Source: the human T2T-CHM13v2.0 reference genome, Homo sapiens. Taken from it: DNA of 64,000 nt. The stretch lies in NCBI RefSeq assembly GCF_009914755.1, contig NC_060942.1; one strand, given 5' to 3'. Numbering within the stretch: the first letter of the stretch is position 1; each line of letters begins with the position of its first letter. The translations under genes were made by a program, and so were the position numbers. Below, piece after piece: positions 8,570-60,984 of this stretch. The notes beneath the pieces are model-generated. The model searched no databases and was not told the DNA's origin. It saw only the letters and a list, made by a program, of their open reading frames with translations.

Positions 8570-8925
8570 TCTTCGACACAGCTGGTCAAGTTAAGAATTG
8601 AAGTCGTGGTAATTAGTTACGAGTTTCTTAGTATGGAAGTCCAGACTGCTGAGAGAACCCTGCGAGGTGACCCCTCCGGGGAAGACAATACACCCGGGAA
8701 AGGACCGGAATGGGCAACGAAGAAGCACAAAACAACATCCCAATCTTGTTGCTACAAACAGATGTTGCCGCGGGCGCTCGCTTGCAAGAACGAAATACAA
8801 TACAATCCCTCATTTGTCTGACCAGGTTTCTCTCTCCAAGAATTGGTTTCGAGGCAAATTATTTCAGGGTTGCACAGGCTGGTAAAAGGCAGTGGAATTG
8901 GAAGCTATCGTCCTTGGCGACCTCA
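8570..8925. promoter_or_regulatory. CpG-enriched non-repeat patch, candidate promoter/enhancer
   Basis: About 16 CpGs in ~350 bp against a depleted background; several RFX-like half sites. Confidence 0.4.
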
Positions 8926-9565
8926 AGTCTCAGAAATGATGCTGTGAAAGTGAAAGGGGTTGATCAGGGGTCAGGGGGAGACTTGGAGCCAGAAACCAGG
9001 TCACAAGGAAGGAGGGGGCGGCCAGACTTCCAAGAAGAGGTTTTGAGAAACTAGCTAGAGGGAGCGGGTGTGAATTAAGATTCCTGGAAGGAGGTCATGG
9101 GAGGCTAAGGGGGAAAGAAAGAGAAAACTAAGTTAGTATCAACCCTGCCCTTCCCGAGATTTTGATTGTTCTCTCAGTGCCTATACAGACAGAGAAATGC
9201 AGGCTTAAAGAAATGGAGATTGCATTAGGGAAATTCAATTTGCCAAGACAAAAAGAAGTTCATTCAGATGAAAAGGGGTTAGGATTTGGTGAGGGGAAAG
9301 CCCTTTTGTTTTGTTTAGAAGAGTTTGTTTTTTTGTTTTTGTTTTTGTTTTTTAATAAAGTGTATATTAACTTGCCCTATTTTCCAACTTGCTTGTGAAG
9401 CCAAGTGAGTCAACTGTATTCTTATATGTTTTGCCAAAAAACATTATTATTCTATTAGAAGTTAAAGGCAAACACTACTACAAACCTGTAATTACTTAAA
9501 TCTTGAATTTATTGCTCTCCATCTATTTTCCTTAATCTAACTGCTTCTATAACAATAAGCCATTA

Positions 9566-12991: not shown

Positions 12992-13297
12992 ATCCTTGGA
13001 ACAGTTTTGCCCCTTATTGGGAACTCCCAAAACTAATTGCTCAGCTCACTGCCCAAGCGGCTGACTTTTCTGGATTGCAGAGCACACATGATCGTGTAGC
13101 CCTCACAATTGAATGTTCATGTCCCTGGACTTTGGCTCTGTCCAGGCTCCGTGATCACACTGGGTGCAACAATTTGGTTATTTTAAAAATGGAAAGTACC
13201 CCCAAAACTTTAAGGTTAGGTTGACTTCTACAATATCAATTCATCTTCATTTAGGAAATGTCTGCTAAGTTGTCTTACCATGTTAAGACTAATCTTG

Positions 13298-13590
<293 letters not shown>

Positions 13591-38397: not shown

Positions 38398-38625
38398 CCC
38401 GGGGAAAAAGCAGTCTTAAGTGGGCTTCCCTCTTCTCTGGGATCTTGGCAGTGTGATTTCTCACTGCCTTGGTGACTTTCTAATGTCCTCAACCCAGTGT
38501 TTCTTTTCATATATTATCGTGTGGTCAGAGAGAGTTGATTTGAACCACCTACTTTGCTGTTGCCAGAAGAAAAACTTCCAAACTAATAATGATAGCTAAT
38601 ACTTAGTGAGAAGGTATTCCATGTC

Positions 38626-39053
38626 AGACTGTGGCTGGTGTGGCTGGCATGGCTGTTGAGTTGCATAACTCCAGGGGGCATTATTCAGACTGTGTTCATT
38701 TATTTATTTTTGAGACGGGGTCTCACTCCAACACCCAGGCTGGAGCACAGTGGTGTGATCATGGCTCACTGCAGCCTCAATCTCTTGGCCTCAAGCGATC
38801 CTCTTACCTCTAGCCTCCTGAGTAGCTGGTACTACAGGCACAGGCCACCACACTGGCTAATTTTTTTATTTATTTATTTTTTTTTTTGTAGAGATGGGGT
38901 TTCATAATGTTGCTCAAACTCCTGGGCTCAATTGATCCACCTGCTTTAGCCTCCCAAAGTACTGGGATTACAGGCGTGAGCCACCCTGCCCAGTCAACTT
39001 TGTGTGTGGTATGAATGTGCAGCTGCCTGGAGTTGTGTGGAGCAGTAGCCCTG
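38626..39053. mobile_element. MER91-like hAT-Tip100 MITE split by an AluJ
   Basis: Palindromic halves aactccagggggca / cctggagttgtg...agccctg. Confidence 0.65.
38698..38995 (-). mobile_element. AluJ
   Basis: catggctcactgcagcctc, ctcaagcgatcctc, cctgggctcaa. Confidence 0.93.
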
Positions 39054-39811
39054 TGGAGCTGGGCACTGTGTAGTGATCTTTATATGTGTTGTCTCATTCA
39101 CTCTTACAAAATTCCTATTGATATGATTGTCCTTATTTATAGATGAGGAAATAGAAACAACACATAACTTTCCTAAGGTGACAGGGTTTGTACATGACAG
39201 CACTTAGAGGTAAACCAGGTTTGTCTCATTACTAGGACTCTCTTGATTTGTGGAAACAAAGTTTGCATTAAGCCTTTGACCTTCCCAGATTCCCTATCTG
39301 TAAAATGGGCACAATAGTATTTATTCTCAACCTCATAGTCTGGGTAGAATGACTTAACAAAGCAGTGGACTTAAACTCTTGAGAGTTTTTTGGGATAAGA
39401 TAATTAGCTTGCATTATCACAGTTCTGTTCAGGAAAGTGGTTTTCTTACGAAGGTATAAACACCCCCAGTTGTTAAGCAAGCAAATGAAGACAATCAATG
39501 GAGCAGAGCTAAGGCCAAGGCAGGTGTTTCAAATAGCACTGCAGAGTGACAGTAAGTGGCATCCACCTTTCCAATGGTACCATGCTTTAAAAAGCAACAG
39601 CTTTAAAAAGTAACAGCTTCATCTATTGAGTCGTGTAAGACCAAGTTTCTCCTCTACTAGTTTTTCTCTTTCCCTTAAGGAAATCAGGTATTCATGTCTT
39701 CTTTCATTTACTCTCTTCCCTCAGTGACTAACTACAAAAGTGTTAATTTAAAAAGTTAGGATTTTGAGGGCTTCTAGACCCTTTAGGCATTAATATTGCA
39801 ACCTAAAACTG

Positions 39812-40065
39812 TTTACCTAGAGGTCACAGGTTCAAGTCCAGGCTGGGTCAGTAGTGACTGAAAGTCTAATGACTGGTCATCTGTTGGCTATTTTATGGTT
39901 TATGTGAAATGAAGCGATGGTCTCAGCTCACTGGCCAGTCCACATCAGAACAGGCATTGCCAGACATTGGTTGGCATTTTCAGCACAGAGGCCAAGAATT
40001 CAACTGGAAGCTTTATCCCTGAGGTTGCCTTCTGTAGAACATAGGCATGGGGCAAGGGAGGAAGG
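39812..40065 (+). mobile_element. LF-SINE (LFSINE_Vert) ancient SINE copy
   Basis: Collinear blocks matching the remembered LF-SINE consensus: aggtcacaggttcaagtccaggctgggtcagtagtgactgaaagtc, catctgttggct...tatgtgaaatga...tggtctcag, gtccacatca, gttggcattttcagcacagaggccaagaatt. Confidence 0.85.
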
Positions 40066-40789
40066 TCACAGTCAATTGGGAAAGAAGAGAGCCATTGTCT
40101 TATCTTTCTACCTTCTTGACAAAAAGAAGATACCTCTTTTCAGACCCATGAAAGAAGTTGACTTCCTGATTTGTCATTCACTTTTGCAATTTCACTCAGC
40201 AGAAGAGAAAAGACGATTTCCAGCAGTAAACGATGCAGGCAGTGTCATGCAGAGGAAACCACTGTTGTTTTCTGGGCTAAAGAGAGCCAGACCGGAGAAC
40301 AGACAGGAAGGGGAGCAGGACAGAGGAGAATGGGCATGATTATATGTAAAGGTAGAGGCCTCTGTTTCTTCTTCGTACACATAAGCAATCATGTGAGCCT
40401 GGAAGACCCAGAGAAGCAAGTGGTAGAATGGCCTGTGCTTTCTCTTTTGCCTATTTCCCTCCCAGCTTGTTCCATGCTCCCTGCAGAAAGGCAGGATCTC
40501 AGACCCACTTCTCTTGTTATCTCTCATGGGGTCAGTGTCAAGGACAGACGTGAACACTGTCAATGCCCCAACTACTACCCACCACTGAGGTGTGTCTAGG
40601 CATCTCTGGATCTAGGCATTTCCCGACTTGTTTTGACTCAGGAAACAGACAAAATCATTTTATTTTTTCCCTAAAAGGGGGAAGTTGAATTTTAAGAATT
40701 TTTTTTTCAGTTGCTCCCATTGTCCTTATTACTAAAGTCCTTGCCTGAATCCAAGGGCCTTCCCTGACTTTTGTCTGAGGCTTGAATCT

Positions 40790-41330
40790 TTATGACACTG
40801 TCAATAGAATGGAATATGGTGAGATGCAAATTGCAGTGGATCAAGATGTGAATGAAGTTGAGAAGGTTGAAGCAAAGAGTATGGACTCTTCTTTCCTGAA
40901 ATCTGGTGGTGGTGAAAGAGACAGATAGAGCCTGGGCAGGGAGTTTGCAGGGAACTTTGTTAGAATGAAGAAGGAATTTTGCATGCATCTGTAGTCTGAG
41001 AAGATGAAGATCTTCTCAGATGAAGCAGGTGAAGAGAGGGAGAAGGAAAATGCACAGGGAGAAAGGGGGCAATAATTTCTAGACAAATGCCAGAGAAGGA
41101 ACAAAAGGAAAGGAGGAACTGTGTAGAAGAAGGAGATGGTCCTGAAGAAGAGACGATGAGGAGGGAAGAAAGGGTTCTGTTATGGATGCATTTCAGGCAT
41201 GGAGTGGCAAGTCACTGGGCTCTTCATCAATAATGAGCTCTATTTTGTTTGTGAGGTGGAAGGCAAGGCTCTTCATTGAGAGGTGGCTGGGAGCCTGAGG
41301 AATGTGCTAAAGATTTGTGGGAAAAGGGAA
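40790..41330 (-). mobile_element. L2 (L2c/d-like) fragment
   Basis: attgcagtggatcaagatgtgaatg...gagtatggactcttctttc antisense L2 pattern. Confidence 0.55.
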
Positions 41331-42357
41331 AGGAAGCCACGAGGGAACAGAAGTGAAGGGCTGCTGGCAGGGCTGGGCTCAGATGGATTTACATCCTCTA
41401 TCTGTATATTAGTGTTATCTTTAAAAGTCGTCTGCCATATCCTGGCTTTCAGTCATGCAGAGGATCACTGCTTTATATTACACAAGGAGGCTTGGCATGA
41501 GGAGAAAAAACAGACTGCAAAATGTCACCCAATCTAAACATGGAATGGGGAGAAAACCACAACAAATGGGGCTGTCAAAAAAGTTTTCAAAGAACTTTAC
41601 AAAAAAAAACCTTTTCTTTTATTTAAGTCAAAACAGCAAGGAAAATAATATTCTGGTGTTCAAGCTCTATTCTCTCTGTTGGGGGTGACGCTTGAAGAAA
41701 AAGAAAAGTGTATTCTGCGGTTAGTGATATTTTAATTGGTCACAATATGAAGTAAAAGTTCAAAACTAAATACTAGAAATATGTCCCCTCTGGAACATTC
41801 AATTAAAATCTGTGGGGGGAAAAAGCCTCAAAATGACAGCCAGAGAATAACAACAATAACAAAAGTTATTGTAAACCAAGACTTCAAGCAGCCAGATGAC
41901 ACTGAGTTGAGTCAAGTATGTGTGTGTGTGTGTTTGGAGGTTTATCTCGGCCACTCCTAGGTGAAGGTTCAGCCCCAGACTCAGCTTACCCCCCTTGCAA
42001 GGGTGTTTTGCTCTGAGCAATATTGCGATATGGGCAGGATTCACCTGAGGCCTCTGCAGTCCCACCTTTCCACACTGCAGTTCTTGCTTCCAATCCTTGT
42101 GAATAGCCAGTGTCCTGAGGACCTGACTCATAAAGGGTTTGAAATGCCTCCACACTGAGGCGAAAATAACTGAGGATAGAAAAGACCTCGGAGTATTAAC
42201 GTTTTAATAGGGCAGGTCTTAGGCAAAATAAATGTTACTGACCTCTGCAATTGCATCACATGGATAGGAGCCTACTCTTCTTATTCACAAAAGCCATCTT
42301 GAGACTATCCCATGTTCCTGCCGGCAAGAAGCCTAAGTGAGATAGCTCATGAAATTA

Positions 42358-42585
<228 letters not shown>

Positions 42586-42859
42586 TTACTGTATTGATTA
42601 AGATAATGTCAAAATCATCATAACAAAAACTAAGGGTTACTATAGACAAAATGTTCTTTGAGCTCTTTAGCATTCCATTTGGAAATTTAACATGTCATTT
42701 GACAACTTTATTTTTTGTGGGGTTCTTTTTACCTCAAAGGAGAAAATTCATGTCTTACAGGCAGGGCACACATGTGTGTACATGCATGCACATCTGTGCC
42801 TATAGGTTTGGCAAAATCTTTCTGTAGCAAACATACCACAAGAAGTCCCTGTGCAGAGT

Positions 42860-43040
42860 CAGTCACTGTCACTTATTAGCCCTCCCAGCCACCCAGGGAA
42901 GTAGACATTATTATCCCACATTACAGAAAAGGGAGCCAAGGCATGGAATGCTGAGTGATGGCCATGCTCACACAGTACGCAGGTGGCGATGCTGGGATTT
43001 GAACCTATGAGTGTAACATGGGTACAGTGTCTGGGCTCCC
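42860..43040 (-). mobile_element. MIR SINE
   Basis: attattatcccacattacaga...gctgggatttgaacc. Confidence 0.65.
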
Positions 43041-43573
43041 ACCACTCTGCAAACTGGCTTTGAGAACTTGAGATGAGTTCTCAGACTTGGACTTGAACAT
43101 AGACTTCACAGAGACAGTCATTTTTCTTTTTAACTAGGCGTTGAGGGATGAGTTTTTAAATTTGGGATGGGGTGGGTGGGGTTTGGTTCGTTTTCCACAT
43201 GCATAAACAGGCATGGTAGGTTTGGGGAAATGCAGTAACTTGCAGGGTGGGTGGTTTAGGATGGACCTGGGGGTGGTGTAAGCATACAGCCGGTTAGCCC
43301 ATGACAATCAGGTTTTCATTTGTAGGTCTAGCATAATAATGGCATCCACTTTTTCTCTTTGAAGAGCCTGGGTCTGGCTGGTGTTACACGGTCCCTTCAA
43401 CTACGGAGGCCTGCTCATGCGGGGCCCTGAATGACATGCTACGGAGTCTGGATTTGATTCTCTGGGTGGGGAGGTGAAACATGTTTGATGACTCAAATTG
43501 CTTGGAAAAAGAAAGGAGTGCAGGAAGGAGACCTGTCCTTATAGGAACAAAGGACTTACTTTGTAGGATTGCT

Positions 43574-57830: not shown

Positions 57831-58459
57831 AAGGGTCTGGCCCAGATGGAAAAAAGACAGAGGTATGTCTGCTCTCCTGTGCAAGGAGGGTCCCTTTCCT
57901 GTTCTTTCTTCAAGAATCTGCTGCCCCTACTCCCCACTCTCAACTGGTAAATTCTGCCAATGCCCTTGCTAGTTTGGCACTCCCAGTTCTGGGCAGAGGA
58001 GGGTACTGACTGAGGGTGGCTTGGTATATCTGTAGTCTGCCGCTATCTCTCCATCCAGCGCCCAAGACCAGTGGCCATGGCCTGCAGGACTCCTCTACAT
58101 GCTGGTGGGCAGTGCCACTGTTCCTGCCTAAGTGCTGTCCCTGGGCTCTTGGAGCACCCTGGTGCCATCGTTTTTTAGAATAGTTTGCTTTCTGCTTTAG
58201 CCTCCTGAGTAGATGCAGGCAGGACAGTGTCACTAGTGAGATCCTCATCCTTTTCTCTACTTCAGGAAGAATGGGGAGACTAATGTATTGTGCTGAGCTC
58301 ATTTGTTTGAATTTGAGGGGCCTAGAGTTCTTTCCTGGTCTTCCTTCCCCTCAGGGGTCAATTGAAGCTCTCATATGGCCTCTCTTCTCAGCTGCTATGT
58401 GGAGGAACAATTAAGCAGAATGTGGTCCCTGACGTACCATCTGTCAAGTGAAGGAAATA

Positions 58460-59830: not shown

Positions 59831-60984
59831 AGGAAGGGTGTTAGGCAGGAAGGCTGGATTTAGAAAAAGCCTTGTGTGAGGCTGCAGGAACAGCAGCTTG
59901 GTTTAGAAAGCATTGTTTTTCTGGTTGCATGTGCTTAGGATGATTGGCCAACCCAAGACCCATGGCACACCCCACTGAGCTGCGTCAGTCCTGCCACCTG
60001 GCACCTCCCATGAGCTCTGAAACCCTGCCAGGGGGCTGGTGCCTCCCAGTTGAGAGTGCAGCCTCGCAGGGTGGGAAGGCACCATGGGGAAAAGCAGGAG
60101 AGGGCCCTCAGCAATTTTTTATGACACCAGGCTTCTGTTCAGTGCTTTGGATAATTAAAAACAGACCCCCACCCAGGCCACATCTTTAGTCTAAAACGTA
60201 CTGCGTGTGGATTTTGGAATTGGCTCCTGAGGGACAGGGCGGAAGCACGTTCCTCCGGGACATCTAAACCAGGCTGGAAAGAGTGCTCCTAGAGTATTGT
60301 GTGGAGATGAATCCTCCTCAGGCAGTGCTGGGAGAGATGACCTCATAGGTCCTTCCCATCTGTAATTCCTGTGATGATCCGAACAGATTTTACAGTGTGA
60401 CCAGATTCAGAACACAGGCATTTAAAAAACAAACCAGCCCCTGTGGAGTTACAGACAGATCTTCCTTCTCTATATTTTCAGCCCGAAAATCACCTCTGCT
60501 CTCCCTGATATCTGGGGCTGGCAGCATTCCTTCCTTGGCTTTGTTGGTGGGAGAAGCACTGTCTTCCTGCAGAGATGGCAAAAACACTTTCTAGAGTCCA
60601 CCCTCCCCGGGCCATGGGGTTTACAATCACTTCCTACTGTAGTCCTTCCTGAACAAGGGAGGAGGAAATGAATCCACAGCCCACCATGGCCACCATTGAT
60701 AAACTGGCCCCTGATATAACTAGGGCAGTCAGGGTGGGGCTGCAGACTTCCTGCTTCTCCCTCTTGGAGGCTTGATAACATGTCCTTGGCTTTTTTTTTT
60801 CTCTTGGAGTGAAAACCACAGCAGGGACACACATGTGGTTGTGAGATGGTAGTGATGATGCTGCAATAATAATATTGGTATAGGCCTGGGCTGCGTTTGT
60901 CCAAACTTCATTCATTTGACAAATATTTCTCACTAGAATAGTATCAATTCATCTATGTATCACTAAAGTCTTCGAAGGTAAGAA

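What the first reader, a model, noticed from the sequence alone, without database searches (positions are those of the whole stretch)
39812..40065. Surviving LF-SINE copy: candidate exapted ancient enhancer or exon
Seen: ordered blocks aggtcacaggttcaagtccaggctgggtcagtagtgactgaaagtc / catctgttggct / tatgtgaaatga..tggtctcag / gtccacatca / gttggcattttcagcacagaggccaagaatt, and a tRNA-type B-box-like GGTTCAAGTCC at 39829-39839. These match the LF-SINE consensus as I recall it. Known: LF-SINE was active in the lobe-finned fish/tetrapod ancestor, is rare in human, and some copies act as an enhancer (ISL1) or an exon (PCBP2). Inference: a copy still readable by eye has probably been under purifying selection, so it is the best candidate for a functional regulatory element here, possibly acting on a developmental gene outside the window.
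Basis: partly seen in the sequence, partly recalled or inferred. Interest (0 to 1): 0.8.

Follow-up and report, generated by a model that had tools for sequence, protein, structure and literature searches.

The report
Half of an ancient LF-SINE relic
This stretch of a human chromosome 18 gene desert is a real leftover of the very old LF-SINE mobile element, of which only the front half survives, and whether it now regulates a gene could not be tested here.

Summary
All five quoted blocks and the B-box-like GGTTCAAGTCC (39829-39839) are in the window in the stated order. A profile built only from other human copies, never from the window, hits the 64-kb window once: 39823-40003 (+), E=2.8e-13. 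Variant profiles give E=7.5e-9 to 1.5e-10. The reversed window gives nothing better than E=0.008.

That repeat family is the one that gave the PCBP2 31-residue exon and a copy about 0.5 Mb downstream of ISL1. Several copies carry both halves of the unit in one piece. So the LF-SINE call is supported, indirectly, because no Dfam or Repbase model was available.

The relic covers about 39817-40016, not to 40065. It keeps a decayed head and the central Deu-domain. It lacks the 3' half that forms the PCBP2-type exon. It is one of the more diverged copies, 54-65% identical to others, with three internal deletions.

The claim of purifying selection or enhancer function was not testable: no other vertebrate genome, conservation score or chromatin data was at hand. 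This is an ordinary member of a known family. The enhancer reading is plausible but unshown, and exon use is unlikely.

The parts
39817..40016 (+). LF-SINE relic in SINE sense: decayed head plus Deu-domain, ending at the first ~40 bases of the PCBP2-type half
   Evidence: Profiles built without the window: 39823-40003 E=2.8e-13; 39879-40003 E=7.5e-9; 39817-40015 E=1.5e-10 and 39896-40016 E=1.1e-10; 39888-40014 E=4.4e-10 with a 21-copy profile. Reversed-window controls: best E=0.0081; none at E<=1.
39829..39839 (+). B-box-like 11-mer GGTTCAAGTCC, a remnant of the tRNA-type head
   Evidence: Present. Not significant alone. It lies in columns that align with the head of two other copies, L025 and L039. 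No A box was seen, and ARAGORN and Rfam find no tRNA.
39848..39889 (+). Head-to-body segment (tcagtagtgactgaaagtc ... catctgttggct)
   Evidence: Matches in 17 of 18 positions with copy L025 (C1:83.24 Mb). The second block is shared with L025, L039, L041 and L042.
39901..39947 (+). First part of the Deu-domain (tatgtgaaatga..tggtctcag ... gtccacatca)
   Evidence: Shared with L039, L041 and L042, the ISL1-linked copy L047 and the PCBP2 copy L006. The window copy has a deletion of about 10 bases here relative to the profile.
39970..40007 (+). Junction block where the Deu-domain meets the PCBP2-type half
   Evidence: Best hit in the whole window of the profile of 10 PCBP2-exon-like copies: 40007..39970 on the minus strand, model positions 191-228 of 233, E=0.016. 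The 5'-half profiles also cover it.
40017..40065 (.).
   Evidence: No hit at E<=10 for any of four profiles in 40000-40450.

Best explanation
Window 39817-40016 (+) is a relic of the front half of an LF-SINE, a tRNA-headed member of the DeuSINE superfamily. It keeps a decayed head with a B-box-like motif and the central Deu-domain. It stops about 40 bases into the segment that, read on the other strand, forms the PCBP2 exon. The 3' half and the A-rich tail are missing or decayed beyond recognition. Identity is shown at about 0.9 for an LF-type DeuSINE and about 0.8 for LF-SINE proper. The function is inferred, not shown. A family this old should be unreadable after neutral decay, and annotated human copies are reported to be mostly conserved and enriched in open chromatin. 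On that basis the most likely role is a constrained distal cis-regulatory module, an enhancer-type platform for transcription factors in the Deu-domain. It would act on a distant developmental gene; ZNF521 is the nearest candidate by my recollection of the map. I put that functional part at about 0.45.
For: 1. The PCBP2 31-residue exon was located. Its DNA finds 13 other places in the genome.
2. A profile of 10 of these copies has its best window hit inside the element, E=0.016, on the minus strand.
3. Copy L025 carries that profile (positions 85-232, E=3.8e-10) and continues into sequence aligning with the element, E=2.4e-5.
4. Chained searches from L025, not from the window, gave L039, L041 and L042. 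Their profile hits the window once, E=2.8e-13; without L025, E=7.5e-9.
5. A copy at C5:52702151-52702367, about 0.50 Mb downstream of the ISL1 LIM exons, carries both halves in the right order and orientation, E=1.1e-5 and 4e-7.
6. Iterated profiles unite 16, and then 21, independent copies, including the PCBP2 and ISL1 copies. They still hit the element at E=4.4e-10 to 1.5e-10. Six further copies matched a profile built without them; three of them (L052, L053, L059) span both halves.
7. For the function, passages only. There are more than 200 conserved noncoding human instances (PMC3649676). LFSINE_Vert is among four old SINE subfamilies enriched for DNase peaks in more than 30% of epigenomes (PMC6904449). 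It is also enriched for Lhx2 binding in mouse cortex (PMC10257727). In the sister family AmnSINE1, most predicted factor sites lie in the Deu-domain (PMC3234267).
Against: Identity:
- No comparison with the Dfam or Repbase LFSINE_Vert model, or with sister models (LmeSINE1b/c, AmnSINE1, AmnSINE2, DeuSINE), was possible.
- The Deu-domain is shared across the superfamily, and the window copy lacks the LF-specific 3' half.
- BLAST of the genome with the element finds only itself.

Function:
- The copy is 54-65% identical to other copies, while those are 42-80% identical to each other.
- It has three internal deletions, one of which removes the CTAATTGG-type stretch present in L025, L039 and L041.
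- My rough estimate of about 0.27 substitutions per aligned site is no lower than for old neutral repeats, if the copy were younger than the family.
- No RefSeq functional element or transcript overlaps it (hub annotation).
- A preprint argues that many more weak relics exist (10.1101/2025.03.14.643233), so being recognisable need not mean strong constraint.
Confidence: 0.5

Rival explanations
1. It is a true LF-type SINE relic with no present function. Either it was constrained earlier and has since been released, or it is a later insertion of a long-lived subfamily that is decaying neutrally.
For: It is one of the more diverged copies, 54-65% identical to others, with three internal deletions in the Deu-domain. 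The 3' half is unrecognisable. No annotated functional element or transcript overlaps it (hub annotation). A preprint proposes about 100 times more weak relics than were known.
Against: The family is reported as older than the tetrapod radiation and its human copies as mostly conserved (passages). Neutral decay over that time should erase it, yet the profile E-value is 1e-10 to 1e-13.
Confidence: 0.38
2. It derives from a sister DeuSINE family (AmnSINE1, AmnSINE2, LmeSINE1b/c or DeuSINE) rather than from LF-SINE proper. The shared Deu-domain would then produce the match.
For: Only the head and Deu-domain survive, and that domain defines the whole superfamily (PMC3234267 passages; PMC4824008 abstract in a search listing). 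By eye the AmnSINE1 consensus printed in PMC2315648 supplement 1 shows related stretches.
Against: The nearest relatives found (L025, L052, L053, L059, the ISL1 copy) carry the PCBP2-type 3' half joined to the same Deu-domain. The junction block 39970-40007 matches the PCBP2-type profile. By eye that block is much closer to LF-type copies than to the printed AmnSINE1 consensus. Rfam finds no 5S-like head at E<=10 in 38500-41500.
Confidence: 0.1
3. It is used as an exon or as part of a noncoding transcript.
For: LF-SINE gave 19 coding exons in tetrapods (PMC9148063 passage). A stop-free frame of 143 codons runs through 39908-40339 (+).
Against: The PCBP2-type exon with its flanking splice sites comes from the other half of the SINE, read antisense, and that half is absent here. 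The open frame has no Pfam match, and by my rough estimate its length is about what chance gives in 64 kb. The nearest annotated transcript starts at 60327 (hub annotation).
Confidence: 0.02

Closest known systems
ISL1-linked LF-SINE enhancer (Bejerano et al. 2006; paper not held; known here from passages in PMC9148063 and PMC3649676)
   Same: It belongs to the same repeat unit, in an intergenic desert far from any coding gene. The copy I take to be this enhancer (C5:52702151-52702367, about 0.50 Mb downstream of the ISL1 LIM exons) shares the Deu-domain blocks tctcagctca and gtccacatca with the window copy.
   Different: The ISL1 copy keeps both halves of the unit, while the window copy keeps only the head and Deu half. 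The ISL1 copy has a transgenic reporter result and reported conservation to chicken and frog; the window copy has neither. A direct pairwise search between the two finds nothing, and only the family profile links them. That the chr5 copy is the published enhancer rests on position and my recollection, not on published coordinates.
PCBP2 alternatively spliced 31-residue exon (LF-SINE derived)
   Same: Same family. The PCBP2 copy extends into the Deu-domain and aligns with the window copy over 90 profile columns at 59% identity.
   Different: The exon lies in the 3' half of the SINE, read antisense, with conserved splice sites in many paralogous copies. The window copy lacks that half.
AmnSINE1-derived enhancers (AS021 for SATB2, AS071 for FGF8)
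   Same: They are DeuSINE relics in deserts around developmental genes, with the Deu-domain as the part carrying predicted factor sites (PMC3234267 passages).
   Different: AmnSINE1 has a 5S-derived head and a different 3' part. No 5S match is present here, and the nearest relatives are LF-type.

Membership tests
LF-SINE (LFSINE_Vert) | Significant similarity to bona fide LF-SINE derivatives (PCBP2 exon copy, ISL1-linked copy) | tested here: met
   Profiles that include these copies and exclude the window hit 39817-40016 at E=4.4e-10 to 1.5e-10. The profile of four 5'-half copies gives E=2.8e-13. Reversed-window controls are weak.
LF-SINE (LFSINE_Vert) | Best match to the curated LFSINE_Vert model rather than to sister DeuSINE models | not testable with these tools
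   No Dfam or Repbase library was on hand, and a consensus read in a paper may not be typed into a tool. There is only a by-eye comparison with the AmnSINE1 consensus in PMC2315648 supplement 1.
LF-SINE (LFSINE_Vert) | tRNA-derived head with A and B boxes | tested here: inconclusive
   A B-box-like 11-mer is at 39829-39839, but the motif alone is at chance level. No A box was seen. ARAGORN and Rfam find no tRNA. The head columns align with two other copies.
LF-SINE (LFSINE_Vert) | Central Deu-domain | tested here: met
   39879-40003 aligns with the Deu part of 11 other human copies plus the PCBP2 copy.
LF-SINE (LFSINE_Vert) | LF-specific 3' half (PCBP2-exon segment) and A-rich tail | tested here: not met
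   Only model positions 191-228 of 233 are matched. Nothing in 40000-40450 matches at E<=10. This shows a truncated or decayed copy and is not evidence of another family.
LF-SINE (LFSINE_Vert) | Orthologous copy present across tetrapods (insertion older than the amniote radiation) | not testable with these tools
   No other vertebrate genome or alignment was available.
AmnSINE1 | 5S rRNA-derived head upstream of the tRNA-related part | tested here: not met
   Rfam finds no 5S match at E<=10 in 38500-41500. This is weak, because a decayed head could be missed.
MIR | Similarity to MIR core sequence | tested here: not met
   The element and the LF profiles find nothing at E<=10 in 42700-43300, which holds a MIR-like copy. 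This is one copy only, not a family model.
Developmental enhancer (exapted conserved noncoding element) | Cross-species constraint, enhancer chromatin marks, reporter activity | not testable with these tools
   No conservation or chromatin data were available. The RefSeq functional elements in the window lie at 8894-9395 and 13238-13419, not here (hub annotation).

The most novel reading that the evidence does not exclude
The relic is an undescribed, deeply conserved distal enhancer in the ZNF521 desert, in which only the head and Deu half of the LF-SINE was exapted. Other human copies found here also keep the Deu half without the PCBP2-type half (L039, L041, L042, L050, L056, L058). Together they would define a second reusable regulatory module of LF-SINE, separate from the antisense exon module of the 3' half.
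Probability: 0.15. Interest if true: 0.5.

Novelty: new member of a known kind. Interest (0 to 1): 0.3.

Why it matters
LF-SINE is the textbook case of a mobile element turned into an enhancer and an exon before land vertebrates radiated. One more verified copy adds little by itself. It does give one concrete candidate regulatory element in a desert that holds only lncRNA genes within 100 kb (hub annotation). It also shows that such relics can be confirmed from the human genome alone, by chaining through paralogous copies. The side observation may be worth a proper genome-wide count with Dfam models: human copies tend to keep either the Deu half, the exon-type half, or both.

Tried and rejected
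- BLAST-type search of the genome with the element (254 and 801 bases) found only itself.
- Direct comparison of the element with 20 kb of PCBP2 found nothing significant. The link appears only through profiles and bridging copies.
- Searching the genome with 10 kb of PCBP2 was swamped by Alu.
- A 26-base head pattern with up to 3 mismatches gave two other places, whose similarity does not extend beyond about 40 bases. I judged them uninformative.
I used DNA and pattern searches instead.
- The PCBP2-like copies do not continue into the 5' half, so they could not test the head.
- Searching the genome with the ISL1-linked copy found only itself.
- A full-text search for a 15-base string of the element found no paper.
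- Searches for LF-SINE and LFSINE and for ZNF521 with desert and enhancer terms turned up no paper on this copy. I saw listings and passages only.
- The B-box as stand-alone evidence is rejected, because it is at chance level.
- A weak second profile hit at 58353-58431 (-) has E=0.84 at best and is not accepted.

Full report
**What is at the coordinates.** The window is T2T chr18:25,048,001-25,112,000 (hub note). They run from aggtcaca...gaaagtc at 39821-39866 to gttggcat...agaatt at 39970-40000. GGTTCAAGTCC is at 39829-39839. ARAGORN finds no tRNA in 39000-41000. Rfam at E<=10 finds nothing relevant in 38500-41500: only Alu-related hits around 38710-39036 and chance-level hits. The B-box-like motif alone is not evidence. 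GGTTCRANNCC occurs twice in the window, 0.60 occurrences are expected, and 16 of 100 shuffles reach two.

**Why an indirect test was needed.** No Dfam or Repbase library is among the tools. Bejerano et al. 2006 is not held. A consensus read in a paper may not be typed into a tool. The human assembly itself can be searched, so I tested the element against genomic copies of LF-SINE. The two archetypes are the PCBP2 exon and the ISL1-linked enhancer (passages in PMC9148063, and PMC3649676).

**The PCBP2 copy and its relatives.**
- KH-domain hits placed PCBP2 at C12:53.425-53.438 Mb.
- I fetched the gene and mapped its exons with the PCBP1 reading frame. A 31-residue exon lies at about C12:53,430,790-53,430,882. 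That this exon has 31 residues in the original paper is my recollection.
- A genome search with 551 bases around it gave 14 places: the exon region itself, two exon-only places that look like processed pseudogenes (one lies beside a KH hit), one unrelated 33-base match, and 10 usable paralogous copies plus one short one.
- A profile of the 10 copies (233 positions) was run over the whole window. Its best hit is 40007..39970 on the minus strand, model positions 191-228, E=0.016.
- In the PCBP2 sense the copies begin with T-rich runs. So the SINE's A-rich tail lies on the other strand and the PCBP2 exon is antisense to the SINE. The window copy is therefore in SINE sense on the + strand, with its head at the left.

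**Bridging copies.**
- The PCBP2-like copies stop at that junction.
- A 26-place pattern for the junction, with up to 2 mismatches, found 12 other places against 0 for the reversed-pattern control.
- One of them, L025 (C1:83.24 Mb), has a 98% identical twin, L032, on C7 over 3 kb, so the two count as one copy. L025 carries the PCBP2-type profile at positions 85-232 (E=3.8e-10). It continues into sequence that aligns with the element over window 39838-40004 (E=2.4e-5).
- Searching the genome with L025 gave L039 at C2:198.84 Mb. L039 aligns with the element at E=2e-7.
- Searching with L039 gave L041 (C6) and L042 (C4). None of these three was found by using the window.

**The unbiased test.**
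- A profile of L025, L039, L041 and L042, with the window excluded, gives exactly one hit at E<=10 in the 64-kb window on both strands: 39823-40003 (+), E=2.8e-13.
- Without L025, whose discovery used a pattern that the window also fits, the hit is 39879-40003, E=7.5e-9.
- On the reversed window the best hits of five profiles are E=0.0081 to 4.1.

**The ISL1 copy.**
- The ISL1 LIM exons lie at C5:52,203,741-52,206,851.
I therefore fetched 30 kb at the distance I recalled, about 0.49 Mb downstream.
- These 30 kb hold one copy, C5:52,702,151-52,702,367. The 5'-half profile matches on the + strand (E=1.1e-5) and the PCBP2-type profile matches next to it on the minus strand (E=4e-7). That is the order and orientation predicted above.
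- I take this to be the published enhancer from its position only.

**One family.**
- Iterated nhmmer from L025 over 16 independent copies, window excluded, joins the PCBP2 copy, the ISL1 copy, the exon-type copies and the 5'-half copies in one profile. The window hit stays at E=1.5e-10, 9.1e-9 and 1.1e-10 over three iterations.
- A search with L041 gave eight further places. Six of the eight matched a profile built without them, at E=5.5e-10 to 1.2e-21. Three of the six (L052, L053, L059) span both halves, and two of the eight did not match at E<=0.01.
- With 21 copies the window hit is E=8.7e-8, 4.8e-8 and 4.4e-10 over three iterations. The reversed window gives none at E<=1.

**Anatomy of the window copy.**
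- It covers about 39817-40016.
- To the right, 40000-40450 gives no hit at E<=10 with four profiles. To the left, neither does 39500-39830.
- So the copy keeps a decayed head and the Deu-domain, and it lacks the 3' half and the tail.
- Over 157 profile columns it is 54-65% identical to nine other copies, while those are 42-80% identical to each other. Cells with fewer than 20 compared columns are included in that range.
- It has three internal deletions of roughly 8 to 18 bases. One removes a CTAATTGG-type stretch that L025, L039 and L041 keep.

**Which Deu family.**
- The order tRNA-related part, Deu-domain, 3' part is as described for AmnSINE1 (PMC3234267 passages).
- The AmnSINE1 consensus printed in PMC2315648 supplement 1, read whole, shows related stretches by eye. 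Its 3' part differs, and its version of the junction block is much less like the window than the LF-type copies are.
- No 5S-like head is detected.
- I cannot exclude LmeSINE1b/c or AmnSINE2 without their models.

**Function.**
- Nothing here measures constraint or activity.
- The argument for constraint is indirect. The family is described as older than tetrapods, with more than 200 conserved noncoding human instances. LFSINE_Vert is among four old SINE subfamilies enriched in DNase peaks in more than 30% of epigenomes (PMC6904449), and it is enriched for Lhx2 binding in mouse cortex (PMC10257727).
- Against this: the copy is diverged and carries internal deletions, and it lacks the homeodomain-type stretch. 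No RefSeq functional element or transcript overlaps it.
- A preprint proposes about 100 times more weak relics than were known (10.1101/2025.03.14.643233).
- My rough estimate, an inference from about 62% pairwise identity, is that about 77% of ancestral bases are retained in aligned columns, or about 0.27 substitutions per site. That is far too few for neutral decay since the tetrapod ancestor. It is not lower than for old neutral mammalian repeats, if this copy were a late insertion.
- Exon use in the PCBP2 manner is excluded, because that half is absent. A 143-codon open frame at 39908-40339 has no Pfam match.

**Verdict.** The functional claim remains open. For all papers I saw only passages found by term search, except supplement 1 of PMC2315648, which I read whole. 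Bejerano 2006 was not seen.

Noticed in passing
window 42900-43010 (-), B-box-like GGTTCAAATCC at 42995-43005: The second B-box match in the window sits in what looks by eye like a MIR-type SINE on the minus strand. The family name is recalled, not tested. It shows no similarity to the LF-type element.
   Followed up: partly
window 38689-39036: Rfam gives sub-threshold SRP RNA, mir-3135, mir-1268 and mir-619 matches here, at a stretch the hub lists as masked. This is the usual signature of an Alu.
   Followed up: no
window 58353-58431 (-): Several LF-type profiles give a repeated but non-significant hit here (E=0.84 to 7). It could be a second, almost erased relic or chance.
   Followed up: partly
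L025 (G000:C1:83236947-83239972) and L032 (G000:C7:78132025-78135050): The two loci are 98% identical over the whole 3 kb held. This is a recent inter-chromosomal duplication that carries an LF-SINE copy with both halves.
   Followed up: partly
alignment A1 (copies L006-L018): In copies similar to the PCBP2 exon, the bases at both exon borders (the ...ccacag acceptor side and the gtgaga-type donor side) are among the best conserved columns in 10 independent copies. Several of these copies may also serve as exons, and the exon is antisense to the SINE.
   Followed up: partly
loci L006-L059: Human copies fall into three groups. Exon-type 3' half only: L007, L008, L010, L011, L013-L018. Deu half without the exon-type part: the window copy, L039, L041, L042, L050, L056, L058. 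Both halves: L006/PCBP2, L025, L047/ISL1, L052, L053, L059. This hints at two separately retained modules.
   Followed up: partly
window 39821-39834 and 40063-40068: AGGTCA followed two bases later by GGTTCA overlaps the B-box-like motif, and a further AGGTCA lies at 40063-40068. They resemble nuclear-receptor half-sites; that motif is recalled and was not tested.
   Followed up: no
window 39908-40339 (+): A stop-free frame of 143 codons runs through the right part of the element and beyond. It has no Pfam family at E<=1.
   Followed up: yes
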